Virus record (IMG/VR): IMGVR_UViG_3300031566_000027
Location: 1 to 63,192 of that record
DNA from: a virus
Taxonomy: Duplodnaviria > Caudoviricetes
Reading direction: 5' to 3' (one strand)
DNA length: 63,192 nucleotides
Part shown: positions 5,660-34,300 of the stretch, piece after piece
Layout of the letters: each line of letters opens with the position of its first letter
How positions within the stretch are numbered: position 1 is the first letter of the stretch
The notes under the pieces: generated by a model
Seen by the model: only the letters and a program-made list of their open reading frames with translations
Told to the model about the DNA's origin: nothing
Databases searched by the model: none
Translations under genes and position numbers: made by a program

Positions 5660-6547
5660 TCAATTATACCTCTTTCCGCCGGCTTTGAGCACATAGTCCT
5701 TAATCACCGCGCCTAATCTCTTATTACCTCGAATGTGAGCAGGACAATAAACAGTGCCGACAAAATGGCCAAACGCCGGCCGCTCTGCTGAGTAATGCTT
5801 TTTATGGGCCCGGCAAAAATGCAACCGGTTTTTCCACATATCCTTTGGCTCGCCATCGGGATAGCGAGGCTTTTTCGGATCAATTACCAGTGTTTTGTAG
5901 GTGAATAGGGGGATCTTGTTTTTCTTTTTCCTGGCCGCCTGCAATCGTTTTTTCGGCCATATCGTTTTGACCGCCACGCCCTCGGCATTGAGCAAGCGCA
6001 AAGCGCAAATGATAACCCAAAACTTAGCAGTGTAAACCTTGTCAAAATAATCGGTAACTTCAAACGGCGGATCAAAATCAATGCCGCCGGATTCGCCCGG
6101 GTTCCAAACTAACATTATCTTAGTATTGCCTTTGCCTGGTTCTATATCCCCATCCATCTTAACGTAACAAAACAAAGGTTCCACCAACCACTTGCCGGCC
6201 GTCAAGCTGCCGGATTTATAAAAGGCGTGAAACTCAAACTCACTTGGCGCCTCCTCGAAAGTTTGTGCTAAAATGGCGTATTGTATCAACTCGCCGTTTC
6301 GCCGGGATACCTGATTATATTCAAATAGGCATAAATCATAAGGCCAAATTAAATCCTCTCGCATCGTTGAATCTTGAAACGCTCTAAGGGGTTCCGGAAA
6401 TAGCTCGCTCAATTTCTCCATATCGCCATAATGAAATTTGTGGCTTGATTTAATTAGCTTACAGAGCTCCGGAATGTGCTTTAGATTCTCACCTATATAT
6501 TTAGGCGCCAACTCTTTTAAATCCTCTATGATATGATGAGCTTGCAT
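5660..6547 (-). CDS. Conserved hypothetical phage protein with His/Arg-rich C-terminal motif
   Basis: AGGAGG RBS; C-terminal HFCRAH...CPAHIRG...GAVIKDY. Confidence 0.7.
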   Translation of the reverse strand: MQAHHIIEDLKELAPKYIGENLKHIPELCKLIKSSHKFHYGDMEKLSELFPEPLRAFQDSTMREDLIWPYDLCLFEYNQVSRRNGELIQYAILAQTFEEAPSEFEFHAFYKSGSLTAGKWLVEPLFCYVKMDGDIEPGKGNTKIMLVWNPGESGGIDFDPPFEVTDYFDKVYTAKFWVIICALRLLNAEGVAVKTIWPKKRLQAARKKKNKIPLFTYKTLVIDPKKPRYPDGEPKDMWKNRLHFCRAHKKHYSAERPAFGHFVGTVYCPAHIRGNKRLGAVIKDYVLKAGGKRYN

Positions 6548-11071: not shown

Positions 11072-11296
11072 CTAATTGATGATGGTTTCTCTAATGACAA
11101 ATAGATCCTTAACCTCCATTTCCAGGGCCGCCGCTATCGCCTTTTCCTCCTCATCGGTCGGCCTCATCCGCCCGCGCTTGATATATGAAAAAACACTTGG
11201 ATCAAGGCCGGCTATTTTTGCGATCTCAACACTCGGCCTTTTTTTTTCAACCAGGGCCCGCTCTAACTCCCAATTATGAAATGCCTCAATTTTCAT
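11072..11296 (-). CDS. XRE/Cro-like HTH regulator
   Basis: SVEIAKIAGLDPSVFSYIKRGRMRP....KAIAAAL...VKDLF; GGAGG RBS; first gene of the leftward block. Confidence 0.85.
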   Translation of the reverse strand: MKIEAFHNWELERALVEKKRPSVEIAKIAGLDPSVFSYIKRGRMRPTDEEEKAIAAALEMEVKDLFVIRETIIN

Positions 11297-11337
11297 CTAA
11301 TAATCCTCCAAAAATATATGGTTTGTTTTATATTTTA

Positions 11338-11365
11338 TTTATATCCTGATTTATTTATTTGTCAA
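11338..11365 (-). promoter_or_regulatory. Leftward sigma-70-type promoter
   Basis: TTGACA (11365-11360), 16 nt, TATAAA (11343-11338). Confidence 0.6.
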
Positions 11366-11377
11366 TCTTTTTATTTC

Positions 11378-11406
11378 TTGACAATAATCCCCCAAAGTGG
11401 GATAAT
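11378..11406 (+). promoter_or_regulatory. Rightward sigma-70-type promoter
   Basis: TTGACA (11378-11383), 17 nt, GATAAT (11401-11406) with extended -10 TG. Confidence 0.75.
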
Positions 11407-11411
11407 TTTAC

Positions 11412-11438
11412 TAAAGTCCTAAATAAATATGCCGATAC
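11412..11438 (+). promoter_or_regulatory. Sigma-28 (FliA/SigD)-type promoter 1
   Basis: TAAA-N15-GCCGATAC (TAAAGTCCTAAATAAATATGCCGATAC), 20 nt before ATG 11459. Confidence 0.65.
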
Positions 11439-11458
11439 AGATATTAGAGGTTAAAGGT

Positions 11459-12250
11459 ATGAAACATATAAACCAGGAAATGACCGAAAAAATAATCGAG
11501 CTCCGCGACCGTGGGGCTGTTTTTTTTGTCAACCATTCCGGGGGAAAGGATTCTCAAACCCAAACCCTCGAGATCTCGCGCCTTGTTCCGGTCGATCAAA
11601 TTGTTATCGTCCACGCCGATCTGGCTGAACAGGATTGGGATGGCGCGTTCGATCACCTGGTTAATACCGCGCCTGCCGGCGTCAAGATCACCAAATGCCG
11701 ATCGCGCCGAACCTTTTTTCAAATGGTACGCGAGCGGGGTATGTGGCCGTCACCTAAATACCGCCAGTGCACTTCCGATCTGAAACGTACTCCGATCGAA
11801 AAGGTTATCCGCCATGAATTAAAAGCCAGGGGCACCAAACTGGCCGTTAATTGCATGGGGATTCGCGCCGAGGAGTCTTACACCCGGGCAAAAGCAAAAC
11901 CCATCAAAATAAATAACCGACTGAGCAAGGCCGGCCGCGAGGTTTGGGATCTACTGCCGATATTCGATTTTACCACGCAAGAGGTATTTGAGCGGATCGC
12001 CGCGGCCGGCCAAAGGCCTCACTGGATTTATAAGCACCTGGGCCGCCTTTCCTGCATCATCTGCATATTTGGCACGCCGAGCGATATCCGAACATCGGCG
12101 GGCCTCCGTCCTGATATTTTTAACGAGTGTGTGGCCATCGAAAAGGAAATTGGCCATACCGTTAAGATCGGCGCGACTCTCGAGGAGTTTGCCGGCCTTA
12201 ATAAAATCGGTGGTTGCAAGGCCTGCGACCACTGGAAAGAGGTAGCTTAA
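11459..12250 (+). CDS. PAPS-reductase family PP-loop protein (CysH/DndC-like), probably Fe-S
   Basis: VNHSGGKDS, VHADL, QCTSDLK, GIRAEES..RA, LPIFD, RLSCIIC; start placed at ATG 11459 after AGAGG. Confidence 0.9.
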   Translation: MKHINQEMTEKIIELRDRGAVFFVNHSGGKDSQTQTLEISRLVPVDQIVIVHADLAEQDWDGAFDHLVNTAPAGVKITKCRSRRTFFQMVRERGMWPSPKYRQCTSDLKRTPIEKVIRHELKARGTKLAVNCMGIRAEESYTRAKAKPIKINNRLSKAGREVWDLLPIFDFTTQEVFERIAAAGQRPHWIYKHLGRLSCIICIFGTPSDIRTSAGLRPDIFNECVAIEKEIGHTVKIGATLEEFAGLNKIGGCKACDHWKEVA

Positions 12251-13239: not shown

Positions 13240-13417
13240 GAAAGGATCTGATACCCATGGAACGAAAAAAATACCGGTTTAGATGCACCAGTGCGATAAC
13301 CATGAAACGCAAAAACTTTGTGCTGCCCTGTTTGAATCCGGGGCAAATCATAGCCCTTTTGGCACAGCATGGATGGATCGTTCAGAATTATTACGAAATT
13401 TGAAAGGAGGGATTGAA

Positions 13418-13531
13418 ATGATCAGACCAGGGAAACTCACCAGGGCCCGGCGGACGGCTTATGTAGCAGGTATGATGTTTTGGGCCTGTGGGATGATGAT
13501 GGTTTTGGCTTTTGGATTGATGATCAACTAA
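13418..13531 (+). CDS. Small membrane peptide
   Basis: AAGGAGG RBS; basic N-terminus plus TM (MIRPGKLTRARRTAYVAGMMFWACGMMMVLAFGLMIN). Confidence 0.55.
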   Translation: MIRPGKLTRARRTAYVAGMMFWACGMMMVLAFGLMIN

Positions 13532-13541
13532 AGGGGGAGCC

Positions 13542-13700
13542 ATGAGGGCATTTGTTTTTGAATTAACAGAGGGTGAACTCCGGAAAGAGGTTGATAAAAA
13601 GCTGATCGATGAATTGAGGGAAAACCTCTTTCCGGATGAGATCTATTGGTTAGAGCACGTTGCCAAAGAGAACCTAAACAAAGGAGGGATAAGGCCATGA
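13542..13700 (+). CDS. 52-aa hypothetical protein (below ORF-track cutoff)
   Basis: GGGGGAG RBS; MRAFVFELTEGELRKEVDKK...; ATGA coupling to the pilin-fusion gene. Confidence 0.6.
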   Translation: MRAFVFELTEGELRKEVDKKLIDELRENLFPDEIYWLEHVAKENLNKGGIRP

Positions 13701-14395
13701 TAGATTGGATGAGTCTGACCGATGAGGACATTAACAAATTGCAGCTGATTATGAAACGGTGCATAGGCAAATTTGAGGGCAGTTGGATCGATCTGGAAAT
13801 GGATATAACGGCCGCGCACTTAGGCGGCATGATCGATCTGCAAAGACTGCTCGAGTTCGATGAGTTTGATTTCATGCACGATGTTGCCGGGATCCGGCGC
13901 CATATCAACCGTGATAACGGTAAAATGAATGATTGTTTTTTGCCCCGGAGCTATCGGCCGTGGGCAAAAAAGCGCATGGCCGGGTTCACGCTTGCCGAGG
14001 TAATGATCGCCTTGGTGATCCTTGGAATGACGGTCATGGCGGCCACAAGTATGGCGATTACAACGATCAAGCTCAATACCACCGGCAATATGCAACAAGA
14101 GGCCATCAATCTGGCCCGGGATACCGTTGAACAGGTCCGCTATCATTTCCCGGGCGATGAACCAAATGGCACTTTTTCTTATATTAAAGGGCCCTATACG
14201 GTTGTTTGGACCATTTCGGACCATACCACCAAAAGCAAACGGATGAACGTAAACGTATCCTGGAATAGGTTCCGGAGCCGAAAGGGCATGACGATTAACG
14301 CTCTATTTTCCGATCAAATGCGCGATCCGCGTTCCTGGGATGGCACCGATTGGGAGGCCTGGAAAGCTAAATTTGGAGTAACCGGATTAAATTAA
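13697..14395 (+). CDS. Fusion of a DUF6874-like domain and a type IV prepilin (PilV/GspI-like)
   Basis: AAGGAGG RBS. N-domain DLEMDITAAH...DL.RLL.FD.FDF.HDV.GI.RH..R..G....CFLPR. Then KKRMAG|FTLAEVMIALVILG (class III signal, E5, G14), EAINLARDTVE and YTVVWTI...KRMNVNVSW. Confidence 0.8.
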   Translation: MIDWMSLTDEDINKLQLIMKRCIGKFEGSWIDLEMDITAAHLGGMIDLQRLLEFDEFDFMHDVAGIRRHINRDNGKMNDCFLPRSYRPWAKKRMAGFTLAEVMIALVILGMTVMAATSMAITTIKLNTTGNMQQEAINLARDTVEQVRYHFPGDEPNGTFSYIKGPYTVVWTISDHTTKSKRMNVNVSWNRFRSRKGMTINALFSDQMRDPRSWDGTDWEAWKAKFGVTGLN

Positions 14396-14405
14396 AGGGG
14401 GATCT

Positions 14406-14720
14406 ATGAAAAAACTAATCATCATAATTGTTGCAGTTATCCTGGCCGGGTTCTGCCTGGGAGTCGGCTATCAGGCCGGCAAGATGCAGGGCAAGGCTAA
14501 TTGTATCGCCACGGTAACAGAAAACTGCCGGGAAATCTGCGGTGTTGGTGACGATTTTTGTTACCCGGACGATGAGGAAACCGCGATCGAATCCGAGGGC
14601 GATGAGAATCTCGCCTTTTACGGGGGGGGGCCGTGGATAAATTCAAACCGGCAATATTGCCGATACCGACAATCAAGGCCTTGCGGCGGAAATCCGGATG
14701 CTCCAAAAAAGAGGCTATAA
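14406..14720 (+). CDS. Membrane/secreted Cys-containing protein; 3' end set by a G9 tract
   Basis: MKKLIIIIVAVILAGFCLGVG N-terminal hydrophobic segment; AAGGGGG RBS. Confidence 0.65.
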   Translation: MKKLIIIIVAVILAGFCLGVGYQAGKMQGKANCIATVTENCREICGVGDDFCYPDDEETAIESEGDENLAFYGGGPWINSNRQYCRYRQSRPCGGNPDAPKKRL

Positions 14721-21362: not shown

Positions 21363-21760
21363 CGGTTTTCTTGTGGGCGGCCATGTACGAATCAATGTAT
21401 CCGGATCTTTGGTTAATGTCCGGATCGATTATGGGCGGCACAAAAATACCGTTTAAGATCCTGGCAAAGTGGAAAAAATCAGGCATGAAAAAGGGCAAAC
21501 CGGACATTCAGCTGCCGGTGGCCAGGGGCGGATATATCGGCCTGTGGATTGAATTAAAAACGGCCGGTGGTAAAGATCCATCCTCCGAACAGGTTGAATA
21601 TTTAAAGCGATTGGCAAGGGCAGGGCACTATTGCGTGTGTTGCAAGGGGTCCGATGCGGCGATCCAAGTGATTAAGCGGTACGTTAATGGTAAGATAATC
21701 AAGGGAGGTTCGCAAAATGTTTTATTTGATGAAAGACAAAACGGGGTTTACGCTTATTGA
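21320..21760 (+). CDS. VRR-NUC domain nuclease
   Basis: EYAEQ...GMKKGKPDI.LP..RGGY.GLWIELK......S.EQ...L..L...G. Confidence 0.88.
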   Translation: MDYSKKRSEYAEQVAVFLWAAMYESMYPDLWLMSGSIMGGTKIPFKILAKWKKSGMKKGKPDIQLPVARGGYIGLWIELKTAGGKDPSSEQVEYLKRLARAGHYCVCCKGSDAAIQVIKRYVNGKIIKGGSQNVLFDERQNGVYAY

Positions 21761-22091
21761 GATCATGGCCGTTCTGGTCATTTTGGGCGTAATTTTTCCG
21801 GTAACGATCAAAAAGTTTAATAATTTTGCAGATAATGCTATCATTATGCAGTTTGATCGAATTGAACGCGAGCTCAACGTGCGGGAAATGGTTACATTTG
21901 CCGATCACCGGATTTCCGGGCGATACACCGATGATGCCGCCCTGTATGCCGCGATCGATTACAACCTGGGCGATGCCAAGTGGATAGCGGGCCCGGCGCC
22001 GGATGGCGGCCAAGTCGGGATCAAGGGGATAACCCGGGCGCTTAAAAGGGTTCAGAGCTCGCCAAAAAAACCGGCCGCGTGGGTAAAGTGA
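21717..22091 (+). CDS. Type IV prepilin / pseudopilin-like protein
   Basis: GGAGG RBS; MFYLMKDKTG|FTLIEIMAVLVILGVIFPV class III signal with E5 and G14. Confidence 0.85.
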   Translation: MFYLMKDKTGFTLIEIMAVLVILGVIFPVTIKKFNNFADNAIIMQFDRIERELNVREMVTFADHRISGRYTDDAALYAAIDYNLGDAKWIAGPAPDGGQVGIKGITRALKRVQSSPKKPAAWVK

Positions 22092-22300
22092 TGGATGAGG
22101 ACAGGCCCGTTTTTGGGTATCTCGAAAAACAAAAGGTGTTCGTTGCCGATCCTCACGATCTGGCCAGGGCCATCCGGTATGGTGATAAGTTTCACTCTGC
22201 CGATGGCCTGGCCTATTATTTCTGGAAAGGTATCACCTATGTAACGCCGGCGGATCAACCGCCTATGCTGCGTTATATCAAGGGCGGGCGGCCCGCTTAA
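22091..22300 (+). CDS. Hypothetical protein
   Basis: TGATG coupling; its stop overlaps the stop of the convergent giant gene (TTAA 22297-22300). Confidence 0.6.
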   Translation: MDEDRPVFGYLEKQKVFVADPHDLARAIRYGDKFHSADGLAYYFWKGITYVTPADQPPMLRYIKGGRPA

Positions 22301-25300
22301 TCCTCGAGGCGGTCCGCCATCCTTTGCTGTCGAACCCTTTTCATCGCCGCCCTGCTAACCTGGGGGCTCTGCCGCTGATAAACCTCTCGATACCACTTGA
22401 TAGCCCGTTCCAATTTTTCCGCCTCTTTTGCCGTTAGGCTTTTCCGGAATTTATGCCGTTGCATTTTTTTAACGCCGGATAGAGGATGGGCCATTGTAAT
22501 TGACCTTTTAAGGCCGGTGGTGGTGCCACCGTATTTATAGTAATAATCATACAAATATCTTTCAGCTGCCTTAAAATCGCCGTATTTCAACGCCTGTTTG
22601 TAATAATATAGGGCGTTGCCTTTGTTTGTCGGCTTGCCGCCGCCACTTTCCTCGCCAATCTTTTCTTTATAATCGATCACCATTTTCCGGGCGTCATAAT
22701 AGGCCTGTTCGCCGGGATCCGAATTATAAAGGACCAGACTTTGCAGATCGGCCATGAAATGCTCGGCCATGTTTTTACCGCGCCCAGGCCTGCCGATCAG
22801 GCGCTTGTAAATCTTATCAAGGCTGAACGTCCGGAGTATGTGCTCTGTGGTATCCCGTATGGGCCTCGGGCTAAACGGATCCGGAAAGGTCGTTTGCCCG
22901 GTTAAGGTTTCAAAAAGCATTTTTGGCTCGGGCCGGAGGGCGTGGATCCCCCGGGTCACAAACGCGATCCCGGCCTCTTTCATCATATCGAGAGGCGTCT
23001 TTTTGCCTTTGGCCAGATCCTTGATATCGTCCGGGAAGTCCTCGAGGCCGAAAAAGGATAGGGTATCTGATAACGCGCCCTGGAACCGAACGGACCGGAT
23101 CGTGCCGTCTGATCGCCGGCCTAAAATCAAATGCAGCTGCCGGCGCCCGGCCTCGCCAAACTCCTTTTCCTCGTCCGGGAATAAGAGCATATTCCATAAT
23201 TGGACCAGGGTATAAAGCATTGTGGCCTTGATTCCAAAACCGACCGCCTTTGTTACCGCCTTTTTAGATGCGATCGCAAGCGGCCGGGATCCGACCTCGC
23301 GGCCCTCATAGCGGACATTTCGCAACATATAGGCATACCGGGGGCTGTTAATCTCAATCCAAGACCAGAATGGCATCATGCGCTTGCGCAAGTATTGGCC
23401 GGATTGAGAGATATTCCCATAATCACCCACCAGTTCCCGGGCCAATTTCGCCGCCCGCTCGGTATCGTCTTTGATGGCGTCTATTTCAACCGGCTTGCTC
23501 GCGCCATAAACGGTTTTGCCGGCCGCTATTTCTTTTTGGAAGTGCCTAAAAGATGCCAATCGCAAGAGGTTCTCGCGCAAGGTTGTCAAATTTTTCGACT
23601 TTTCCCACCACCTAACGGCCAGATTGGGCTTTTCGCCCATGATAATGCCGCGCACAAATTTATCGAGGCCCATTTGTTTGGTGATATCCTCAACCTCTTG
23701 CACGCTCCATCCGGATCCTATCACGCCCAACTTACGCGCCTGATCGAGCTCCGCTTTTAGTTTGCCGGTTGCCTTGCCCTTGTCAAAGGCCCTGAGATCC
23801 CTAAGAGATTGTTTCATCCCCTTTAGAATTTTCGGGTTATAGGCCAGGACGATATCCAAGTCACCGCTCATATTGTTTAAATTGTATTTGAGCACGCGCA
23901 TTGGGTTGATTAGAATATACTGTTTCCAGGCCCGTAACGCCGCCTCTGATATCTGCCCCAGGGCCTTATCCGTTGGCGGAGGCCTGAAATTGTCTAAGGT
24001 TTCAGCCAGGCCGGTCGGCAACACCCAAACTAATTCCTGTCCTTTGGCCAACGCCTGTTTGACGTTTTCCTCTTTGAGCTCCGCCTCGCCGGCAACCACC
24101 GCCCTCAACATACCATCGGTGATCGTATTAACCCAAAACCCGCCTTTACCTGGTTCCGGTTTCCATTGTGTGTAGCCCTCGGGAACTAATTGCTGCCACG
24201 TTAAAAAGTTTTTGCCCAGGTCGGTCCGGATCTGGTTTTTGCGGGCATGAATGTTTTTAAAGATAGTGGCCGCCCAATTCGATCCGGGCTTGCCGGTTCT
24301 AACCAGGTAGGCCAGAAAATCAAACCATTTGCCGTCCGAGATCTCGCCCGGCGGATCGTAATTCTCCGGATCCTTTTTATTCTCGAAACTTTGGGCCAGG
24401 GATTGCACAACATCATCAAACCCGGAATCTATTGCCTCGAGCTCGCCTTTTGACGCCATCCGTTCGAGGGCCCCGCGGGCCATGCCGATCTTTTTACGAT
24501 ACGGGGTTAGGGGGTCTAACTCCTCATCGTTCATAACATCCTGGGCGGTCAAAGGAGTTTTAAGGGTTTTAGAAAGGCGTTCGGCTGCCTCCTGGTAAAA
24601 CCGTTCAAGATTCTTTTCAGTTGCCTCCTGGTGCAATTCCGGCTTGATATCAGCCATCTTCCGGAGGCGTTCTAAAACCCGGGCGGTTTCAAGTTGGGCT
24701 AATTGCTGCGATAGCGCGACAAATTCAGCCTCGATATATTCAGTATTATAATCAAGCAGGGATCCCTTGCGGGCAACCATCCATGGGCGCCAGTGTTTGC
24801 GAACGTCCGGGGATCCGGTTGCTACGTTGCCCTTTTTCTTATCTTTGGTTCCCCAATACTGTAAAACCTGGTGGTGGTAATAATCATCGTAATTTTTGAC
24901 CTCTTTTTTAAGGATCTTGTGCGCGACCAGGCCATCAACCATTTTAGAGATATATTTTTTCCGGGCGGCCAGTGCATCGCGGATCTCAGTATGCTCCGCC
25001 GCCAGGGCTTGAAACTTGCTATAAGCGGTTTCAACGTCCGCCACGGATTCAAAACCAAAAGGCAGGGTTTGCCCCTTAGTCAATAGGGCATCATTTAAAA
25101 GGCCTGATTGGATATCTCGCACCATATCGGCCAAAATGATATTGGTGGCGTAAATATCATAGGCATCAGATCCCAAATTCTCGATAAACCCGCGCATAAC
25201 ATCGGCGGTTTGCTGCTTGACAACCTCGGGTATCTCTTGATGGATGCGCAAGATATCGGCAAACTGCGCCCTGAGTTTGGGATCCTCGACCTGGTTTAGC

Positions 25301-28300
25301 GCCGGAAAATGCTGCCGTTGTGCTTTTAACTCCTCATATTTTTTGCCGGCAACATCTTTAAAGGCCGTTTTGCCTACGCCTTTGGCCGCGGCCATTCGCT
25401 TTTTTTGCTCGGGCGTTAGGATATGGCCATACTCGATTTTTTTACCCTTGCGCGGGGGTTCTTTCTTTTGCCTAAAGGCGGGGGCGGCGCCGGCGATCGG
25501 CTCGACCGCTTTGCCCGCTTTTGCAAACTGCCTGGCATTTGCGATCAGTGCCCGGATCTCTGCATCCGATAGTTTCAACTTGATACCCGCGGCCCGGATC
25601 CACTCCCGGATAGCCCGGACCATGCGATCAAACCACCTGGATTCAATCTCTTGCTGTGCCTGGCCGGCAAACCATTCCTCGGCGGCCTGGGCGCGGCCCT
25701 CGGTGGTTTTCATATCGAGGCCCAGGGTTGCCCCGATCGCGTCAACATCTCTCTTTTTGGCGATATAAAGATCCCTTAATACCGGGTAAATCTTATTACC
25801 CAGGATGCCCCGGATCCCATGATGGCCAAACGCCTCATGCAAAAGGGTTGTGGTGGTTTCCGCGTTTGATCCTAAATTTTCAGCGATCAGATAAATCGTA
25901 TTATTATAATAGGCGCCGGCGATCAGGCCCGCGTCTTTATAATTGGCTTTAAGATAGTCCTTAACGTCCTGGGGGAGGCCCTCTTGCGTGCGGTAGATCT
26001 TAACGTACGGGGCCCCTTTAGCCCATTTCACCCGGACGGCATCAACCATTGTTTTAACCTGCTCAACCGTTTGCGGGGTCGCCGGTGCAAATTTTTTGGC
26101 CCTGGGCGCCGGAGCTCCGGCCTCGCCCTTGATGGCTGCCGGCGGTTCGGGTTCATATCGGACCTCGGCCACAATATCATTGACTCCGCTATCATCCCGG
26201 TGCACGATATGATTTTCGCCCGCCACATCTTTTCCTAAATGCCAGGTGCCCGGGCCGGCAAGGCGTTCCACCATCAACCATAGTTCGGGGGCGATGCTAT
26301 AAAAATCATTCTCTGATTTAATCCAAAACTTAGTTGCCGCTTGCGGTGCATACCGGGTGCCCTTAAAAATTGCGTGTGCCTCCTCCGCGCTATTGGCGTT
26401 CTCAACCTCATAAAGCACCTGGTTCGTTTTGGCCTCTATGATATCCCAATAACCGCCGCCCTTATCCACGGCCTCAACCTCGGCCGCGGGCTCGATCGTG
26501 TACTCCTGCGGAGGCTCGATCTCTGGCCCGGGGTCCGCCTCGAATAGCGAGGCCGGCGCCGGCGAATTGTAAGCATACCCGGGATCGAATTTTTTACGTT
26601 GCTCCCCGAAAAAGGTTTTTAAATCGAAACTACCCTCCCGGACCATAAAGGCCGGCGGATCCGTGGAAAATTGCTCTTGCTTCGGCCAGATATACCCGCC
26701 TTGCGTTTTCCACTTATCTTTTTCGGCAAAATCTTCCAGTATCGGCACCGGGGCTTTATAGTCGCGGACCGGCCTGGCGCCCTCAACCGCCATACCGGGT
26801 GTGGCCGACATTTGTGCCTCAACCTCGGCCAAATCCTTTTCGGCCTGTGCGTACTCATTCTCTTTGGGCCATTTCGATATAGCAACCTCCTCGAGGGCCG
26901 GCTTTTTGCCGTTTAATTCGGCTATTTCATCCTGGGCCTCGCCTATAATTTTATCAAGGTTTGCTATAAAATTGGTAACGGATCTGGATACGTTCCCGGT
27001 GATTTCCGGCGGGGCCGCCTTTTTTTCGCCCAGGGCATCGGACCAATCGGCAAGAGCGTATGAATTTGAAGTAACGCCGTTTTTGAGAGTCAACCATCGC
27101 CGGGCCCTATCGCCGGCGGCACTTTCGATTAAGGCCTGGGCCTTAATCGGTTTGAATTTGTATTCCTTGACCGCTTTGGTTTTGGTTTTGCCATCTTTAT
27201 CTTTTTGCTCGTTGCCATCTTTATCGAGAACCGGGCGCTCGACCTCAACCTCCTCATGGGCGCCAAAAACGAGCGTTGGTTCGCTTTTTTCCTTATCCCA
27301 CCACTTGCCATCCTTAACCGGCCGGGTTTTTTCGACCGCCGCGGCCAGGGAGTCTGCGATCTTCTTGCCGTCTTTTTTAAGCACCAGGATATCATCGGAT
27401 CCGGTAAAGCGGACGGCGGTTATCGGTTCCATGATCGCCTTACTCTTTTCCTGGGTTGCGATTCGAGATTCGAGGGTTTCGATCCGGGTCGGCATCGCCA
27501 CAAGTTGATTTTTGGCATCCCGGACCGTATTAAGAAACGAACTCCGCTCGAGGCCCAATGTCCGGACCAAATCCATTAGCTCCGACTGTTTGCGCAATAG
27601 GGGATTGCCCGAGGCGTCCGCCTCCATTTCTTTCGCGCTCATCACTTCCTCGGAGATATCCTCGATAACATCGATATTGATATCTCCGGACAGTGCGGAA
27701 TGGAGCACCTTGCCCTTTTGGAAGATTTTCCCCCACCGGTGCGCGTCCACGCTCTTTTCGGTAATATAGTTAAAGATGCGCACGCCATCTTTATCGGTGT
27801 AGATATTGCCCGAGCGGATCCCGCGGCCGTTCCTTTGCTCCCAGGCCGAATAGTTCCACCAAACATCTAAATGGTGGATATCTGAAACGCGCTTTTGAAC
27901 ATTAACCCCGGTTCCGGCCTTTGTGGTGGATCCGATCAGCACCCGGACCTCGCCGGCGTTTACTTTTTTAAATAGGCGCCTGAGATTAATCGCCTTTTTC
28001 TCTTTATTTGAATGATCGGCATCGTGGATAAATGCAATTTGATTCTTAGGGATCCCTAATTTTATCAATTCATCTTTGAGGCCGTCATAGGTATTGAACC
28101 CAAGGCCCGAGTTTTCAAATGCGAACAGATCGTCTTCATACTCTTGCCTTTTTTCATCGCTCATGTTTTCGATCTGTTCATCTGTTTTGTACTTAAATGC
28201 TTTTAAATACCGGCCGGGCACGCCCATATCGGCAAACACCAGTTGAACGCCCTTGTCTTTTTTTTCTGCTTTCCATCGCTCGAAAATTTTACGCGAGGCT

Positions 28301-31300
28301 ACATAGATCTTAGAGTCCTTTTGCATTTTTGTGTTTGCATAAGGCCCCGGGGCCGGAATCCAAGTATCAGTTTTTGGATCCCACTTTTTACTATTTAACA
28401 ATCGCTGATCGATGGCAACCATGCTCATGTTTGAAATGATGCGCAACATATTATCCGGGCGGCCCTCGTATTCGGCATTTTTAGGATCCTGCTCTATCGC
28501 CTCGACTCGATCCCTCACCACGTTTTCAAAATAATCGATAACGTATTTATTGGGTTGGATGGTCATTCCGATTGGTTTCCCGCCATAAACTACTGGCCGG
28601 GCGATATCGGTATCCTCGGCTCGCACGCTATCGATGTTCTGAAATGCGGTTGCAAGCAAACGGCCGGCGTTCACGATACGCCTATTGGTTGTTACCGTTT
28701 TAAATTTCTGACCGGCGCCATCCCATTCAAGTTGGGCCCCGATATCTCCATAATTGGCAATCCATCTATCAAACCGCCATTGGCCCTGCCGTTTTGCCTC
28801 GTCTGGTTGCAGCGCCCTTTGCAGGTTGTAAAATTCAGCGATCGAGTTGGTGAGGGGGGTTCCGGAGGCCAATACGATGCCGTCCTTTTTCGCCTGAGTA
28901 GCATTTAACCATTGTGCTTTCCGGAAAAAGGCCTGGGCGGTCTTGCTGCCGGCGGGGTTTAGCCCGGTAATTCGATTAAGGCTTGTCGAAAACGGGATAT
29001 TTTTATAGGCGTGTGCTTCATCGACTATCATCAAATCCACGCCGATATCGTCAAAGTAAATTTCCTGGGCCTCTTTTGCCTCTGCAAAAGTTCCGGGAGC
29101 CTTTAACTTGGCCTCTAAGGCCAGGATCCGACCTTGAATATCTTGCTCTATGATCCGGGATCCGGCCGCCTTTGCCTCCTCGAGGACTTCCCGCAACTCC
29201 ATCAATTCCTCATCGATAAAGGTTTTTTCAGCCTCGGGGGATAAGGCGATCCGGTTTAGATCCTGCTGCCGCATGATGGCGATATCAAAATCGTTTAGCG
29301 CCATCTTTTGAAGTTGTTTCCGAGCTCGCTCTTTTACGGTGGATACCTGGATCGGCATTACGTTTGCCAGGGGGTAAAGCCTTTTAATTTCCTCAACAGC
29401 CTGGCCCATCGTGGAGTCGTTCAACGTAACGTAAAGAACCTTTTTCTTGCCCTTTAACCGTTTCGCCTCCATGCCGATCATGGCCATTGTCAAGGTTTTG
29501 CCGGCGCCGACCTCATGCGCAAGATAGAGATTGCCATTTCTTAAATACTGCCATACGGCGTTTACCTGATGATCGTAAAAAACCATCTTATCATCAACGC
29601 CCAACTCTTTAGCCTCGGCGGCCGTCAATACCTCCATGCTCTTGCCGGGAAATGTTAAATGGGCGCCATCATAGTGCGACCGAGTTGAGGTATTAACGAT
29701 ATCGTTAAAGCGGACCTGGGCCTCCTCGGCGCGGGCAGGATCGGCAAACAGCCACCGGTTAAATTCCGCCTGGATCTCTTGTAGCTTGGCCACGGCGCCG
29801 GCCGTTGCCACTTCATCAACATAGACTTTCTTATCCACTTTATAGGTGACAACCGGCACTTTGCCCGCCAGGGCATCGGCCATCAACTTAAAAAAGCTCG
29901 CCCTGGGAGTGCCCCAAACAGACTTGGCCTCAACGCTAGTCTTGTACTTCTCGATATCGCGTCTAGTTTGGGCCTTGCTGCCGCCATATCTCGGGCCGTT
30001 AAAGGTAAGATTCCAGATCCCGGTGAATGGATTTAATTCTAAAACAGGCCGGAGCTCGTTACCAATTTTCAGCTTTTCTTTTATGAAATCCGCGATATGT
30101 GCGCCCTTTAACCAGGACGCGCCAATTCGCGCCGTTATTCGGTGCGCGGGGATATCATCAGGCAAGGCGGCCTCTAATAGCTTTACGTTCCGCTCATATT
30201 CCGGATTATCAGCGGCCATGGATCTGGCCACTTTCAACTTTCGCCGCACGTTGCCGGCCAGGTATTCATCCATCGTTTCAAGGATCCCGGTTTCCGGGTT
30301 CTCGATAACTTTATCGAGCACGCCTTTTAATACGGTATCCGGATCGGTGCCCCGGAGCTTGGCCATGTAATCAAGGTTTGGATATCCAAATTCATCCAAG
30401 GCCATGCTTAGGGCGTCATGGTCGGTGTTCGCAAAATCGGGCCGCTTTTCGGTTCCTACAATCTTTTTGGTGAATAGGTCCGCGAGTTTTGTGACTTTTT
30501 CGGTATCGGGATCATAGGTTTCGAGGGTTGTAACCCACGCGGCATCAGTGAGGGATACATAAATTTTAAGGTTTTTAGGATCATTCAGAGGGCCAAACTT
30601 TTTTACAAATTGATTGTAGGCCTTTTTTAATTCTTTCTGTTCGGCCTTGATCTCTGCCTCGGGCAGGTTTTGCTTTTGCGCTCTTAAAGTCGCCCGCACC
30701 TGGTCCAGGATCTTAATGTATTGCCGGCCAAGTTTATTAGCCCTCATTTCAGCGGGCGTGGTGTTCGGCCACACTTCCTCCTGGCCGTCCACCTTTTCTG
30801 AAACCTGGTCCTTATCGTTTAGATAAAGCCCGCCCTCTTTTACCGTTCCGGGTGCAGATATTATATCATCGAGGGATAGATCCGCTTTTACGACCTCGGT
30901 TTCAACTATGCCCACCGGGAACGCCGCGGCCTTTTCGGCCAGGGTCCGGGCGATATTATCATCGATTTTAACAACGCGCAGTTTATCAGCGCCCCATCGA
31001 TCCTGTACTTTTTCAAGGCTGCCGGCGATCATATCCGGGTGCTTGATAAAGTAATCGTTGTAAATAATATCGTTGCCCTCATCGACCGCCTGGGCGGTCC
31101 AAATATCGGGCTCAATCCCTTTAAATTCGCTGCCCTCAATGTTTTTACGGAATACCAGGATATCGGTAACAACTCCGGTGGCGCTGTAAATGGCCGATGG
31201 CAGGCGGATGGCGCCAACAAATTCGGCCTTTTGGGAAAATTCCTGTAAATGGCCGCCGCCCTTATCCATCGTGTTCGAGGTGGTTATGGCCATCGCCAAA

Positions 31301-34300
31301 CCGCCCGGGGAGGTAAGATCGAGCATTTTATTAAGGTAATAGTTATGGAGTTTGTGCCCGGCCTTGTTATGTTTCGTATCGGACGGCGAATAGTTAGCAA
31401 ACGGCACATTTGTTATGGTGAGATTGTATCGATTCAGGGGCTTTTTAGAATCCTCAAACCCCTGATGTTCGATAGAGGCTTTTTCGTATAGAGCTCGGGC
31501 GATCCGGGATGAAAGGCCATCCTTTTCAACACCCTGGACGGAAACGCTTTCCGCTAATTCATCTGGCATCGTACCGGTGAAAACGCCGTTTGCCCCAAAG
31601 GCCGGGTCTAAAACCTGGCCGCCGGTGAATCCTAACCGTTGTGCCAGTTTCCACATAAACCGCGCAACCGGCACCGGTGTATAATAAGACGATACGGAGG
31701 ATTTTTCTGCATCCGAAAGCTCCTCATCGGTCATTTCTGCCCTAACCAGTTCGGCGCGGACCGCCCAGGCATCTTTAGGACTCCACGCAAACAGTTCTGA
31801 CATACCGCCCCAACCAGTATAGCCGGCCAGGATATCTTTTTCTTTTTGGGTTGCGGATCGTTGCTCCGCCTCGACTTGATTTAATACTTTGAGTGCTGCA
31901 AGATTGGCATTAAAGCGGTCATTTACATTTGATGCAGAATTAAGCGATTCATCAGTTATTCGGTAGTTTCCGGGGGTAGCAGGATATGCTCCTGTATCAC
32001 TATCTCCCTCGCCGCCATCGGTTTCACCCCTCTCCTTACCAGGTCGGCCATCGCCTCCTCCGCTTTCCCCACGCTCTCCCTGATCTCCTGGTTCAACCTC
32101 CCCCGCCTCTCCAACCCCTTGACCAGGGCGGGTAGGTATTTCGTCCAGTGCGTCCTCGCCAGTTTCTCCCAACTCAGATTCATCTTGGGCCCCCTCTTGA
32201 ATGTAAGTGGCGGTATCACCGTCATAAATGAAATTTGTGAGCTTATAGCCAATTATATCATCGGGGTGCAACATTGTCAAGTATCCGACCGCCCCGGCTC
32301 CCCCTTGCCCCTCCTCTTTATAGGATTTATCATAGGCAGAATATCCATCCGGTTGCATCATCGGCCCCAGGCCGGTAGCGTCATATCGATACCAGTAATA
32401 GCCGTCCGGGGATTGCTCTGAGGACCAAATTGCTTTATACCGCTCCTCGATCTGATCCAATAAGGCTTGTTTTTCCTGTTCTAACCTCTCCGCCTGTATG
32501 GTTTCAAAGTCGACATAATCATCTTTCATGCTCGGGTTGCCGTCCGCATCCCACTGAACGCCATCGAGGAAATGCGAAATCTTTTCGGCAAATTCCTCGC
32601 GTTCCTGGCCGGCAGGATAAACAAGATGAGATCCTACAACGCCGGCGCCGCCGATCCGGCCGGCCTCCACGAAATCATTTACAAGATAATTGTTTGTGCC
32701 GGGCAGGGTATCATAAACCCAGGCCTCGAACGCTCGCGCCCACATTTCCTCGCGGCGGGCGGTATATACGGGGTCCAGGGCCAACGCCGTTTTATAATAA
32801 TCGGTCCGTTTTTTAACCGCGTCCTTGTATCGCCTGGATACTTCCTCTTTTATAAAATCAAGCCTGGTTTGCCCTTTTTTAAGCACCAGGCGTTTCATAA
32901 ATCCACTTTCCGGATCCATGATCTCATCGGCCAAACGCGGCCCGGCCTCCCAATCGTACCGGTCCATAAAGGCATCAATCAGACTTTCGAGCTTGGTTTC
33001 AACGTCTGAGGGCGCCTGCGCGTGGAAACCGTGACTCCATTCATGCGCAAGGGTGCCATCGCCATTATCCCGGGTAAAGTTGATGGTCCGTAGATCCGGG
33101 AAATAAGCGGCTGCCGCGCCCTTGGCTTTGTGCCCCAGGTTAGCAAATTGGATGGCCAGGCCATTTGCCAGGCCCATCGCTTTATCGGTTCCCGTTTGGA
33201 TCACCGCGGCCAGATCCTTAAAGGCATCAAAGGCGGCGTTTACTACCCGGTGGCGTTCTGCCTGATCAATCCATCCGGCAGTACCAAAACCCACGCCGCT
33301 AAAGCCAAACGGATCCTTTAACTCCTCGGTTTTTGTCAGTGGTTGACCTTTGCGGTAATCCGGCAAGCCGGTTCTGATAACCTCTTTATTCTTTTCCCGG
33401 TTGTGGATATCGATCTCGGAAAGCAGGATATCGTTTTCCTGGGCGAGATACTTTTGCCATCGCTCGGTTAAAAACTCGTAAAGGGTCTTTTGGTAGCGAT
33501 TGACGATAAATTCCTGGTTCCACAATTCGGCGTTAAGCAGATTCTTATCAATGTCGTAAAAATCCGGGTAAACACCATCACCCATGACGCCCGGAGGAAT
33601 AAATAGCCGCTGTAAATCTCCAACTGCATCCATTATGGTTAGTTTGTTAGAAAAAGTGTTGACCACCTTTTCCATGTGTTTGCCGTATTGAGTGGCCAGG
33701 TCTTGCAGTTCGCTAATCTCATGGCCGGCATCTAACCAGTTTTGCACTCGGGTTTCCCACTTTTTCTCGCTGCGATAACTGTGGCTCCCGAGTGACGCCT
33801 CGCGCTCAACGTAGTCCTTAAAGGTGGCAAACATCTTTTTTGCCGCGTTTCTGAACCGCGGCAGGCCATAAGAGGCGCCCTCTGGAAAATCAATATTCCA
33901 GATATTAGCAGGGGCCATCTTATCACCGATAATCTTAATCTGAGTTTTGGGCGGTTTGCCCTGGATCCCCCTGGCTAAATCCTCCGGATCGTACACATAG
34001 CCCACGTTTTGAAAATTACCCAGGGCCTTTTTTGCCGCGGCGATGGCCGCCTTAGTTTCTTGAATGAATCGCCTGAGATATGGCTTTATTCCGTTGCCAA
34101 ACCGTTCAACAAAGAAATTGAAAAATTCTTTTAAGGATTTTCCGGCCGACTTCATGTGTTCATAGGCCGATTGGAATTTGGGTTTTGCCTTTGCGTAGGT
34201 ATCTTCATCAAAGGTGACGCCCATTGATAGCTTGGTAGTTCCACCGAAAAGATCATAAAGACCGGATAGGGCATCCTCGGCGCCGGCTAAACCCTCGGCC

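What the first reader, a model, noticed from the sequence alone, without database searches (positions are those of the whole stretch)
13697..14395. Prepilin whose leader is a whole 96-aa domain: possible peptidase-released effector plus decoy pilin
Seen: one ORF with a strong RBS encodes a DUF6874-like domain, then KKRMAG|FTLAEVMIALVILG and a 136-aa PilV/GspI-like body. The internal ATG at 13976 has no clear RBS and would leave only MAG as leader. Established: PilD cleaves after Gly-1 on the cytoplasmic side, and leaders are normally short. Inference: host PilD would release a soluble phage domain and create a minor-pilin mimic, so the phage could sense piliation while poisoning pilus or T2SS priming. 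Alternatively the bulky leader could trap PilD.
Basis: partly seen in the sequence, partly recalled or inferred. Interest (0 to 1): 0.8.

Follow-up and report, generated by a model that had tools for sequence, protein, structure and literature searches.

The report
Phage minor pilin with domain-sized leader
An uncultured phage makes a pilus-tip-type subunit whose normally tiny cut-off leader is replaced by a whole small phage protein, so the host's pilin-trimming enzyme may split one precursor into two working proteins.

Summary
ORF 13697-14395 (232 aa) has a perfect AGGAGG ribosome-binding site. It encodes a DUF6874 domain (Pfam 79 bits), an 11-residue basic linker ending in Gly96, an intact class III prepilin signal (F97, E101) and a 136-aa head. 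The head's nearest solved folds are GspI/PilV-class minor pilins (Z 9.4-10.1).

The fusion is not an artefact. Five further proteins (42-81% identity in the pilin part) share it, both halves are under purifying selection, and contigs from two other studies cross the junction without indels. The internal ATG is not conserved and has no Shine-Dalgarno.

New here:
- Two sister phages join the same pilin in frame to a different small protein. That protein is the separate upstream gene (13542-13700) in this window.
- Two relatives have ordinary 5-6-residue leaders.
- The phage has a second, canonical pilin (21717-22091) and no prepilin peptidase.

Best reading: the host peptidase cuts a two-in-one precursor into a free cytoplasmic protein and a PilV-like minor pilin. 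The pilin then acts on host pili, as the published prophage P-FimU does. Cleavage and phenotype are untested.

This scan earlier noted a comparable design in another phage (e1-5325937). I class it as a new variant of a known kind.

The parts
13542..13700 (+). ORF-U, a 52-aa small protein with no family match. Its TGA overlaps the ATG of the fusion gene. In sister phages its homologue is itself the in-frame leader of the pilin.
   Evidence: no Pfam or PHROG hit; L005 and L006 fusions; DNA alignment A5
13682..13687 (+). Shine-Dalgarno AGGAGG, 9 nt before the ATG at 13697.
   Evidence: the same motif lies before the L003 gene
13697..13951 (+). DUF6874 (PF21779) domain, residues 1-85: four helices plus a short hairpin, predicted cytoplasmic. 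It keeps all family-invariant residues (H61 D62 G65 F81 P83).
   Evidence: dN/dS 0.15
13952..13984 (+). Basic linker YRPWAKKRMAG (net charge +4) ending in Gly96 (-1). It is the equivalent of a normal short prepilin leader, is variable among homologues, and has lower model confidence.
13976..13978 (+). Internal ATG (Met94): no SD and not conserved. It reads GAG in variant contigs of two runs.
13982..13987 (+). Predicted prepilin-peptidase site Gly96|Phe97.
   Evidence: G, F, T and E+5 invariant in 8 of 8 aligned members
13985..14056 (+). Hydrophobic alpha1-N segment with Glu5 (FTLAEVMIALVILGMTVMAATSMA); the only strongly hydrophobic stretch of the protein.
13985..14392 (+). Predicted mature minor pilin, 136 aa, no Cys: a 52-residue alpha1 helix and a 4-stranded sheet, GspI/PilV class.
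14312..14392 (+). Conserved phage-specific C-terminal tail (residues 206-232, ..DPRSWDGTDWEAWK..GVTGLN). It is absent from the 12 chromosomal PilV-like relatives aligned.
   Evidence: (dN/dS 0.16)
21717..22091 (+). Second phage pilin, 124 aa, with an ordinary 10-residue leader (MFYLMKDKTG|FTLIEIM). A homologue lies in L005.

Best explanation
One gene makes one 232-aa precursor.

Shown:
- The precursor has an N-terminal DUF6874 domain and an 11-residue basic linker ending in Gly.
- Next come a class III signal helix with Glu5 and a GspI/PilV-class minor-pilin head with a phage-specific C-terminal tail.
- All parts are under purifying selection.
- The pilin has no start site of its own.

Inferred from established pilin biology (reviews PMC10191384 and PMC4471445):
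- The hydrophobic helix targets the precursor to SRP/Sec and inserts it N-in/C-out. DUF6874 stays in the cytoplasm and the head faces the periplasm.
- The host prepilin peptidase cuts after Gly96 at the cytoplasmic face; the phage has no such enzyme.
- The cut frees DUF6874 as the soluble small protein it is in other phages. It leaves a mature 136-aa PilV-like pilin in the membrane.

Inferred by analogy with P-FimU:
- The pilin enters the host type IVa pilus minor-pilin (priming/tip) complex and changes or blocks the tip. The most likely benefit is exclusion of competing pilus-binding phages.
- The second, canonical phage pilin may take part.

The leader position behaves as a modular slot. Sister phages carry the neighbouring small ORF there, and more distant relatives have a 5-6-residue leader. 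This fits a region that is discarded from the pilin after cutting. Whether the fusion is adaptive (coupled, membrane-localised, PilD-dependent release) or merely tolerated is open.
For: The fusion is real:
- It is conserved in P0004-P0007 (72-80% identity overall) and in P0008 (58% in the N-domain, 42% in the pilin part).
- Contigs from other studies bridge the junction without indels.
- dN/dS is 0.15-0.45 in every segment.

The pilin has no own start:
- Met94 is present in only 2 of the 6 fused proteins.
- L003 has no ATG, GTG or TTG within 13 codons of Gly-1 and no SD.
- Variant contigs in X11 and X7 read GAG at 13976-13978.

The signal is intact:
- G-1, F+1, T+2 and E+5 are invariant in 8 of 8 aligned members, while the rest of the helix varies.
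- N_methyl and TIGR02532 both score over their cut-offs.

The head has a pilin fold:
- The AF2 model has pLDDT 91.5, with a 52-residue alpha1 helix and a 4-stranded sheet.
- VIA-align gives XcpV/XcpW 5bw0_B Z 10.1 (rmsd 2.5, 79 aligned), GspIJK 3ci0 Z 9.5 and EpsI 2ret_A Z 9.4.
- The sister protein in L006 reaches the PilV equivalog cut-off (52.6 vs 52.2).

The leader slot is modular:
- L006 and L005 join the ORF-U homologue in frame to ..AQAG|FT.
- A block of about 296 nt carrying SD, ATG and DUF6874 without a stop separates the two states.
- P0158 and P0159 have MHNNKG| and MNNKG| leaders.

Both leader modules are free-standing proteins elsewhere:
- DUF6874 has 2065 hits, mostly 87-130 aa. 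Of the 150 listed, 9 have 60 or more residues after the domain, and only 1 of these (P0008) has the prepilin motif.
- ORF-U is a separate gene in the window.

Other support:
- The phage lacks Peptidase_A24 and T2SSE.
- Precedent: P-FimU replaces FimU at the pilus tip and blocks tip-binding phages, and it has an extended C-terminus (PMC12952977). The phage family here has a conserved C-terminal tail that the 12 aligned chromosomal relatives lack.
Against: - No experiment or proteomic datum shows cleavage.
- Published leaders are 6-26 aa, or about 15-30 aa for type IVb (PMC4471445). No case of a folded domain as leader turned up in my searches.
- The peptidase active site sits at the membrane-cytoplasm interface. 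A compact domain 11 residues upstream might hinder access.
- P0008 has no basic residue in the last 7 positions before Gly.
- The gene is dispensable: in L005/L004 it is broken by an insertion.
- The window protein itself is under the PilV equivalog cut-off.
- The host is unknown. The best chromosomal relatives are only 31-34% identical, so the target machine (T4aP or T2SS) is inferred.
- The function of DUF6874 is unknown, so 'effector' is a label without content.
Confidence: 0.5

Rival explanations
1. Uncleaved bitopic membrane protein. The class III helix serves only as an N-in signal anchor that holds DUF6874 at the cytoplasmic face and the pilin-like head in the periplasm. The protein then acts as a decoy that occupies PilD or the assembly platform (dominant-negative block of pili or T2SS), or it localises DUF6874 to the pilus machine.
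For: - The leader is far longer than any described.
- A compact, confidently folded domain (pLDDT 94.4) lies only 11 residues from the scissile bond.
- Other published phage proteins block pili by binding machine parts: Aqs1, PfsE and Zip. I saw these only in the search listing and abstracts.
Against: - Glu5 and Gly-1 are invariant. An anchor does not need them.
- Close relatives with 5-6-residue leaders exist.
- Two unrelated leader modules are interchangeable. That is hard to explain if the tethered domain is the active part.
- Both modules are free-standing proteins elsewhere.
Confidence: 0.2
2. Tolerated accident. The fusion has no function of its own. In a tightly packed early operon, loss of a stop and start merged neighbouring genes. 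The merger survives only because the prepilin leader is thrown away, so both products work as before.
For: - Three leader states occur in one small clade.
- The fusion is confined to six 90%-identity clusters: P0001 and P0004-P0008.
- 0 of 7 other phage pilins sampled have a long leader.
- An earlier scan note describes a mobile element sitting in frame in prepilin leaders (e1-5302970; not checked by me).
Against: - This reading is a sub-case of the best explanation, because it also needs cleavage. It differs only on adaptiveness.
- The fusion has persisted down to about 42-58% identity (P0008).
- Two independent modules sit at the same slot, and a third design was noted by the scan in another phage (e1-5325937). 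This hints at more than chance.
Confidence: 0.2
3. Internal initiation. The pilin is really made from ATG13976 (leader MAG) or another internal codon, and the read-through fusion is a by-product.
For: - ATG13976 exists in the window and in P0007.
- Three- to four-residue leaders do occur in phage pilins: L057 has MKG| and L056 has MKKG|.
- L006 has an in-frame GTG 9 codons before Gly-1.
Against: - The match to SD is only 3 of 6.
- Met94 is absent in 4 of 6 fused proteins and in variant contigs of two runs.
- L003 has no start codon within 13 codons of Gly-1.
- There is no stop between the domains in any member, so the fusion is made in any case.
Confidence: 0.07
4. Assembly or sequencing artefact, or a decaying pseudogene.
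For: The source is a metagenome, and a related phage (L005/L004) carries a disrupted copy.
Against: - Contigs from independent studies are identical or free of indels.
- The identical protein is recorded on 8 contigs.
- dN/dS is 0.26 overall.
- The other two frames of the ORF hold 15-20 stops.
Confidence: 0.02

Closest known systems
P-FimU, the prophage-encoded minor pilin of F10-like Pseudomonas phages (Sztanko et al., Cell Rep 2026, PMC12952977; abstract and sections 17-18 read)
   Same: - It is a phage-encoded homologue of a host type IVa minor pilin and depends on the host's machinery.
- It has an extra C-terminal extension relative to the host protein.
- It is an accessory gene.
- The likely logic is phage-versus-phage competition at the pilus tip.
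   Different: - The window protein is PilV/GspI class, not FimU/GspH class.
- The phage is uncultured, with no tyrosine integrase found.
- As described in the sections I read, P-FimU is an ordinary pilin. Here the leader is a 96-aa folded domain, or a 49-aa small protein in sister phages.
- No functional data exist for the window protein.
P-PilA and truncated ~60-residue PilA-like proteins of phages (same paper, section 17)
   Same: - They are pilin-derived genes in phages, including virulent ones.
- They are proposed to enter or block pili.
   Different: - They are major-pilin derived.
- No long leader is mentioned in the section I read.
Bacterial PilV / GspI minor (pseudo)pilins (TIGR02523, TIGR01707; structures 5bw0, 3ci0, 2ret, 5v23)
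   Same: - Both have a class III signal with Glu5.
- Both have a small head of alpha1-C plus a 4-stranded sheet, with no disulfide.
- The nearest chromosomal relatives lie in FimT/PilW/PilV/PilX-like operons of Desulfobulbaceae MAGs.
   Different: - The window gene is not in a minor-pilin operon.
- Its score is under the PilV cut-off (37.3 vs 52.2).
- Its leader is 96 aa, against 5-23 aa in 23 chromosomal relatives.
- It has a phage-specific C-terminal tail.
DUF6874 / PF21779, 'component 3,314' of Durairaj et al., Nature 2023 (PMC10584680; passages read)
   Same: - The N-terminal 85 residues are a clear member with all invariant residues.
- Here too the family is prophage/phage-associated, has no informative PDB match and has no conserved context.
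   Different: - Family members are normally free-standing proteins of about 90 aa, or carry Zn-ribbon-like tails.
- Fusion to a prepilin is not described in the passages I read.
Mitochondrial GspG of Naegleria and relatives (Horvathova et al. 2021, PMC8134430; passages read)
   Same: It is a pseudopilin with an intact processing motif, preceded by a very long N-terminal extension (about 160 aa) that is presumably removed.
   Different: - It is eukaryotic, and the extension is an organelle-targeting sequence, not a folded protein of another family.
- No GspO is present.
- The resemblance is analogy only.

Membership tests
Type IV pilin / class III signal peptide (PF07963, TIGR02532) | Profile match over the curated cut-off | tested here: met
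   N_methyl scores 27.3 bits against a cut-off of 21.2. TIGR02532 scores 20.8 against 16.3.
Type IV pilin / class III signal peptide (PF07963, TIGR02532) | Leader ends in Gly and is followed by about 21 hydrophobic residues with Glu at +5 | tested here: met
   The sequence reads G96|FTLAE101VMIALVILGMTVMAATSMA. G, F, T and E are invariant in 8 of 8 aligned members.
Type IV pilin / class III signal peptide (PF07963, TIGR02532) | Short hydrophilic leader (6-26 aa; up to about 30 in type IVb) at the very N-terminus | tested here: not met
   The leader is 96 aa and contains a folded domain. The ranges come from PMC4471445.
Type IV pilin / class III signal peptide (PF07963, TIGR02532) | Lollipop fold: a long alpha1 helix packed on an antiparallel sheet | tested here: met
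   The AF2 model has a helix at 99-150 and strands at 158-205, with pLDDT 91.5. Pilin structures top the VIA list. This is a predicted model, not a solved one.
Type IV pilin / class III signal peptide (PF07963, TIGR02532) | Cleavage and N-methylation by a prepilin peptidase | not testable with these tools
   No peptidase is encoded in the phage. The host is unknown.
PilV / GspI minor pilin | Equivalog profile over its cut-off | tested here: not met
   For the window protein, TIGR02523 scores 37.3 against 52.2 and TIGR01707 scores 19.2 against 44.35. The sister protein in L006 reaches 52.6 on TIGR02523.
PilV / GspI minor pilin | Structural similarity of the head to solved GspI/PilV | tested here: met
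   5bw0_B Z 10.1, 3ci0 Z 9.5 and 2ret_A Z 9.4 stand above the rest; N. meningitidis PilV 5v23 gives Z 6.9. Foldseek E-values were weak (6e-2), with probability 0.98-1.0.
PilV / GspI minor pilin | Encoded in a minor-pilin operon with PilW/PilX (or GspJ/GspK) | tested here: not met
   The gene lies in a phage early block among unrelated small genes. Host relatives do sit in such operons.
DUF6874 (PF21779) | Profile over the cut-off, with family-invariant residues | tested here: met
   The score is 79.3 bits against 27. H61, D62, G65, F81 and P83 are all present. phrog_12453 matches at E 9e-15.
P-FimU-type phage pilin defence | Phage-encoded homologue of a host minor pilin with added surface features | tested here: met
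   The C-terminal tail is absent from the 12 chromosomal relatives aligned.
P-FimU-type phage pilin defence | Incorporation into the pilus and a block of tip-binding phages | not testable with these tools
   This needs a host and phages.

The most novel reading that the evidence does not exclude
Phages use the host prepilin peptidase as a site-specific processing protease for two-in-one precursors. The prepilin leader is a plug-in slot into which small cytoplasmic phage proteins are fused (DUF6874 here, ORF-U in sister phages, a basic protein in another phage noted by this scan). These proteins are delivered to the inner membrane with the pilin. They are released only in cells that have active PilD, that is, in pilus-competent hosts. 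Release of a cytoplasmic factor would thus be coupled to installation of a phage-made minor pilin.
Probability: 0.3. Interest if true: 0.8.

Novelty: new variant of a known kind. Interest (0 to 1): 0.6.

Why it matters
Prepilin leaders are described as short peptides whose only known fate is removal. A conserved, selected pilin whose leader is a complete folded protein raises two testable questions.

1. How much cargo can a prepilin peptidase tolerate upstream of Gly-1?
2. Do phages exploit that enzyme to mature polyproteins at the membrane?

The finding also extends phage-encoded minor pilins beyond Pseudomonas prophages, where they were shown only recently for FimU. The new case is a PilV/GspI-class protein in an uncultured phage from sediment, soil or aquatic samples that carries two pilins.

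It gives the 'dark' family DUF6874 a first physical context, at the cytoplasmic face of the inner membrane. If cleavage fails, the protein is still a new design of membrane-tethered pilus decoy.

Tried and rejected
Tools or searches that gave nothing:
I therefore could not see the contigs of P0005-P0008, P0158 and P0159. Their gene neighbourhoods and start codons are unknown, and P0005's 27 extra N-terminal residues are unexplained.
- The viral-contig scan with A1 found no relative.
- L003, L004 and L005 are not held as genomes, so the family searches in them did not run.
- The 'longer' search with the N-domain found only the same five proteins.

Structure searches:
- Foldseek against the PDB gave no match at E <= 0.001 for the full model.
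- The DUF6874 domain folded alone (pLDDT 94.4) gave only generic helical-bundle matches. The best was Z 4.6 (3ntw MLLE domain), with 0 chains at Z >= 5. No function can be read from its fold.

Cultured phages:
- tblastn against 50,697 phage records gave 19 records, all matching only residues 2-92. None matched the pilin part.
- In BcepIL02, DUF6874 is the C-terminal part of gp30.

Host and expression:
- Host assignment is weak. 6 of the 10 best chromosomal pilin relatives are Desulfobulbales/Desulfobacterales-type MAGs, but at only 29-34% identity.
- A 151-nt contig in one metatranscriptome run (X20) covers 13596-13746. This does not show transcription.
- Runs with small shares of the stretch are not used for habitat.

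Not run or not found:
- Complex prediction was not used. I make no binding claim that it could settle, and enzyme-substrate pairs and stand-in hosts are poor uses of it.
- Literature searches for long or domain-sized prepilin leaders and for prepilin peptidase as a polyprotein protease found nothing relevant. These cover only the held open-access library.
- Supplements are closed. Table S3 of PMC12952977 (phage PilA-like groups) might list comparable proteins.

Readings I considered and rejected:
- DUF6874 = TumE toxin. This is wrong: TumE is DUF6516 in the same paper.
- An intron or intein in L005. I saw only an insertion of two small ORFs replacing the helix region and did not pursue it.
Full report
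WHAT IS THERE

The window is a complete-looking IMG/VR virus record of 63,192 bases (CheckV estimate 100%, linear). It encodes large and small terminase subunits, portal, major head protein, internal virion proteins and an O-like replication initiator. I found no tyrosine integrase.

ORF 13697..14395 (+) translates to 232 residues. A perfect AGGAGG lies at 13682-13687, 9 nt before the ATG. That ATG overlaps the stop of a 52-codon upstream ORF (ORF-U, 13542..13700) as ATGA.

Family matches:
- Pfam finds DUF6874 at residues 27-85 (79.3 bits, cut-off 27).
- Pfam finds the N_methyl prepilin motif at residues 92-116 (27.3 bits, cut-off 21.2).
- NCBIfam finds TIGR02532 over its cut-off. PilV (TIGR02523) is the best equivalog but stays under its cut-off (37.3 vs 52.2).
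- PHROGs puts the N-domain in phrog_12453, of unknown function.

The predicted cut site is KKRMAG96|F97TLAE101, giving a 96-aa leader and a 136-aa mature part.

IS THE FUSION REAL?

Yes, on four grounds.

1. Homologues. A search of 5.8 billion proteins returned 5 hits among 123 candidates. These were the window's own protein and four homologues (P0004-P0007, 72-80% identical), all with the same two-part architecture. The exhaustive representative search with the N-domain added P0008 (230 aa). It is 58% identical in the domain and 42% in the pilin part, and is again fused.

2. Selection. Against the DNA of the L003 homologue, dN/dS is 0.15 (DUF6874), 0.35 (linker), 0.24 (hydrophobic helix), 0.45 (head) and 0.16 (tail). 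The two other frames of the ORF hold 15-20 stops in the window and 12-14 in L003.

3. Independent contigs.
- The stretch is held at 94% or more of sampled words by 10 runs from 7 studies. Six of these may be the source.
- A contig of X7 covers 13400-14379 with no difference.
- A contig of X11 covers 13798-14560 with 10 substitutions and no indel.

4. The internal ATG at 13976 is not what makes the pilin.
- It has only a 3-of-6 match to the SD.
- Met94 is present in 2 of the 6 fused proteins.
- L003 has no ATG, GTG or TTG within 13 codons of Gly-1.
- The variant contigs in X11 and X7 read GAG there.

As controls I looked at leader lengths in other pilins. Of 29 chromosomal relatives parsed, 23 have an ATG 5-23 residues before Gly-1; for the other 6 my script found no ATG. 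Of 8 phage loci carrying the exact GFTLIEVM motif, 7 are pilin genes with an ATG 2-10 codons before Gly-1, and 1 is not a pilin. Long leaders are therefore specific to this clade.

THE TWO HALVES

The AF2 model from a 55-row alignment has pLDDT 91.5 and pTM 0.56. It shows:
- a four-helix N-domain with a short hairpin;
- a less confident linker (blocks of 86 and 73);
- a 52-residue alpha1 helix (99-150);
- a four-stranded sheet (158-205);
- a poorly modelled tail.

Without Foldseek pre-filtering, the best solved matches to the head are the GspI class: 5bw0_B (XcpV/XcpW complex) Z 10.1, 3ci0 (GspK-I-J) Z 9.5 and 2ret_A (EpsI) Z 9.4. N. meningitidis PilV 5v23 follows at Z 6.9. Foldseek E-values were weak. 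The L006 sister protein reaches the PilV cut-off, as does the nearest host-type relative in a Desulfobulbaceae MAG. That relative sits in a FimT/PilW/PilV/PilX-like operon.

The phage family carries a conserved C-terminal tail of about 25 residues (..DPRSWDxTDWEAWK..) in 8 of 9 members. The 12 aligned chromosomal relatives lack it.

The N-domain keeps every invariant residue of DUF6874. Folded alone it gave no informative structural match; the best Z was 4.6. This agrees with Durairaj et al. 2023 (PMC10584680, passages read). They describe this family ('component 3,314') as prophage-associated, with no PDB hit and no conserved context.

DUF6874 is normally free-standing. There are 2065 hits at E <= 1e-3. 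Of the 150 listed, most are 87-130 aa. Nine have 60 or more residues after the domain, and only P0008 among them has a prepilin motif. In 50,697 cultured-phage records, 19 hold the domain and none holds the pilin part.

THE NEW POINT: A MODULAR LEADER SLOT

Three states of the same pilin family exist.
- (a) DUF6874-pilin: the window, L003 and P0005-P0008.
- (b) ORF-U-pilin. In the IMG/VR fragment L006, the homologue of the window's upstream small ORF runs in frame into ..NRAQAG|FTIIEVM. Its likely start is GTG at 5860 behind AGGGGG, which gives a 49-aa leader. In L005/L004 the same join exists (..QKAQAG|FTIAEV), but two inserted small ORFs then break the gene. The C-terminal head persists behind a new N-terminus.
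- (c) Short leaders MNNKG| and MHNNKG| in P0159 and P0158, which are 47-49% identical to the window's pilin part in my alignment. BLASTP reports 50-55%.

The DNA alignment shows that states (a) and (b) differ by one block of about 296 nt. The block carries an SD, an ATG and DUF6874 without a stop. It sits between the end of ORF-U homology and the ..AG|FT codons.

In both long-leader states the pilin has no initiation site of its own and depends on the upstream reading frame. Both leader modules exist elsewhere as free proteins.

The phage also has a second pilin with a normal 10-residue leader (21717..22091). It has no Peptidase_A24 or T2SSE genes.

HOW IT MOST LIKELY WORKS

Established pilin biology (reviews PMC10191384 and PMC4471445, passages read):
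- The class III helix is recognised by SRP/Sec.
- The leader stays cytoplasmic.
- The peptidase cuts after the Gly at the cytoplasmic face and needs no other factor.
- Gly-1 is critical.

Inference for this protein:
- The precursor inserts N-in/C-out, with DUF6874 in the cytoplasm.
- The host peptidase cuts at G96|F97.
- DUF6874 is freed, and a mature PilV-like pilin remains in the membrane.

The invariance of Glu5 matters for a processed, assembling pilin and not for an anchor. Together with the interchangeability of the leaders, it favours cleavage. I put cleavage at about 0.6-0.7.

For the role of the pilin, the nearest tested case is P-FimU (PMC12952977; abstract and sections 17-18 read). 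This prophage minor pilin is built into the pilus tip, keeps the pilus working and blocks tip-binding phages. [quoted passage not shown] The same paper notes pilin-like genes in virulent phages.

I therefore take modification or blockage of the host pilus tip complex, for superinfection exclusion, as the most likely function (about 0.4). A dominant-negative block of priming, or an effect on a T2SS, are alternatives.

Whether the fusion is adaptive or merely tolerated is open. Tolerance is plausible because the leader is discarded. An earlier scan note describes a mobile element sitting in frame in prepilin leaders (e1-5302970; unchecked).

RIVALS

- An uncleaved tethered decoy (0.2).
- A neutral fusion that is still cleaved (0.2; a sub-case of the main reading).
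- Internal initiation (0.07).
- An artefact or pseudogene (0.02).

COMPARISON AND NOVELTY

Phage-encoded minor pilins are now published, but only for FimU-like proteins of Pseudomonas prophages with ordinary architecture. A PilV/GspI-class phage pilin, a two-pilin phage and above all a leader made of a whole protein (96 aa, or 49 aa in sister phages) are not in the papers I could search. Those searches cover an open-access library only, and supplements were closed.

Leaders are described as 6-26 aa, or 15-30 aa for type IVb. The only long extension I found in print is the organelle-targeting extension of about 160 aa on mitochondrial GspG (PMC8134430), which is an analogy only.

This scan earlier reported a comparable design in another phage: a mini-pilin fused behind a basic protein exactly at the peptidase site (e1-5325937). 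I did not re-examine that DNA.

VERDICT

- Observation: confirmed.
- Class: new variant of a known kind.
- Interest: 0.6.

Noticed in passing
window 22297-40302 (-): A single 6001-codon ORF takes up about 28% of the genome (translation). DUF6874 also occurs in Burkholderia phage BcepIL02, a Lessievirus of 62.7 kb. This hints that the window phage is a distant relative of the Bcep22-like podophages with giant virion proteins.
   Followed up: no
window 21717-22091 (+); L005 6496-6876: A second phage pilin of 124 aa has an ordinary 10-residue leader and N_methyl over its cut-off. GspH/GspG-type profiles match only its N-terminus. A homologue lies about 0.5 kb upstream of the broken pilin locus in L005.
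   Followed up: partly
window 14406-14720 (+); L003 8710-8952; L006 6432-6698: A small protein directly follows the pilin gene in three related phages. It has an N-terminal hydrophobic anchor and a conserved Cys-rich motif (..ENCxxICGVGxxF.YPD..). It has no Pfam match. It could be a periplasmic partner of the pilin.
   Followed up: no
L005 7412-8267 (also L004): In a related 67-kb phage contig the ORF-U-pilin gene is interrupted just after ..G|FTIAEV by about 430 nt holding a 69-codon ORF and a new N-terminus with a CxxC motif. The pilin's sheet and C-terminal tail (68% identical) survive as a 146-aa ORF without a membrane helix.
   Followed up: partly
window 13961-13978: Natural variants in two runs change W89 to P (13961-13962) and M94 to E (13976-13977) together. 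This brings the linker closer to the ..AP.K..AG form of P0005 and P0006.
   Followed up: partly
L055, L056, L059-L062 (IMG/VR loci): Six of the seven phage pilin genes found with the GFTLIEVM pattern encode very short 'mini-pilins' (60-82 residues after the cut site) with 3-10-residue leaders. They match the truncated phage pilins described in PMC12952977 and in earlier notes of this scan.
   Followed up: no
window 11072-11429: A divergent control region lies between a 74-aa protein that looks like a helix-turn-helix regulator (my reading of its sequence; no PHROG match) on the minus strand and the rightward early block that contains both pilins. The block starts with a PAPS-reductase-like gene (11429-12250).
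   Followed up: no
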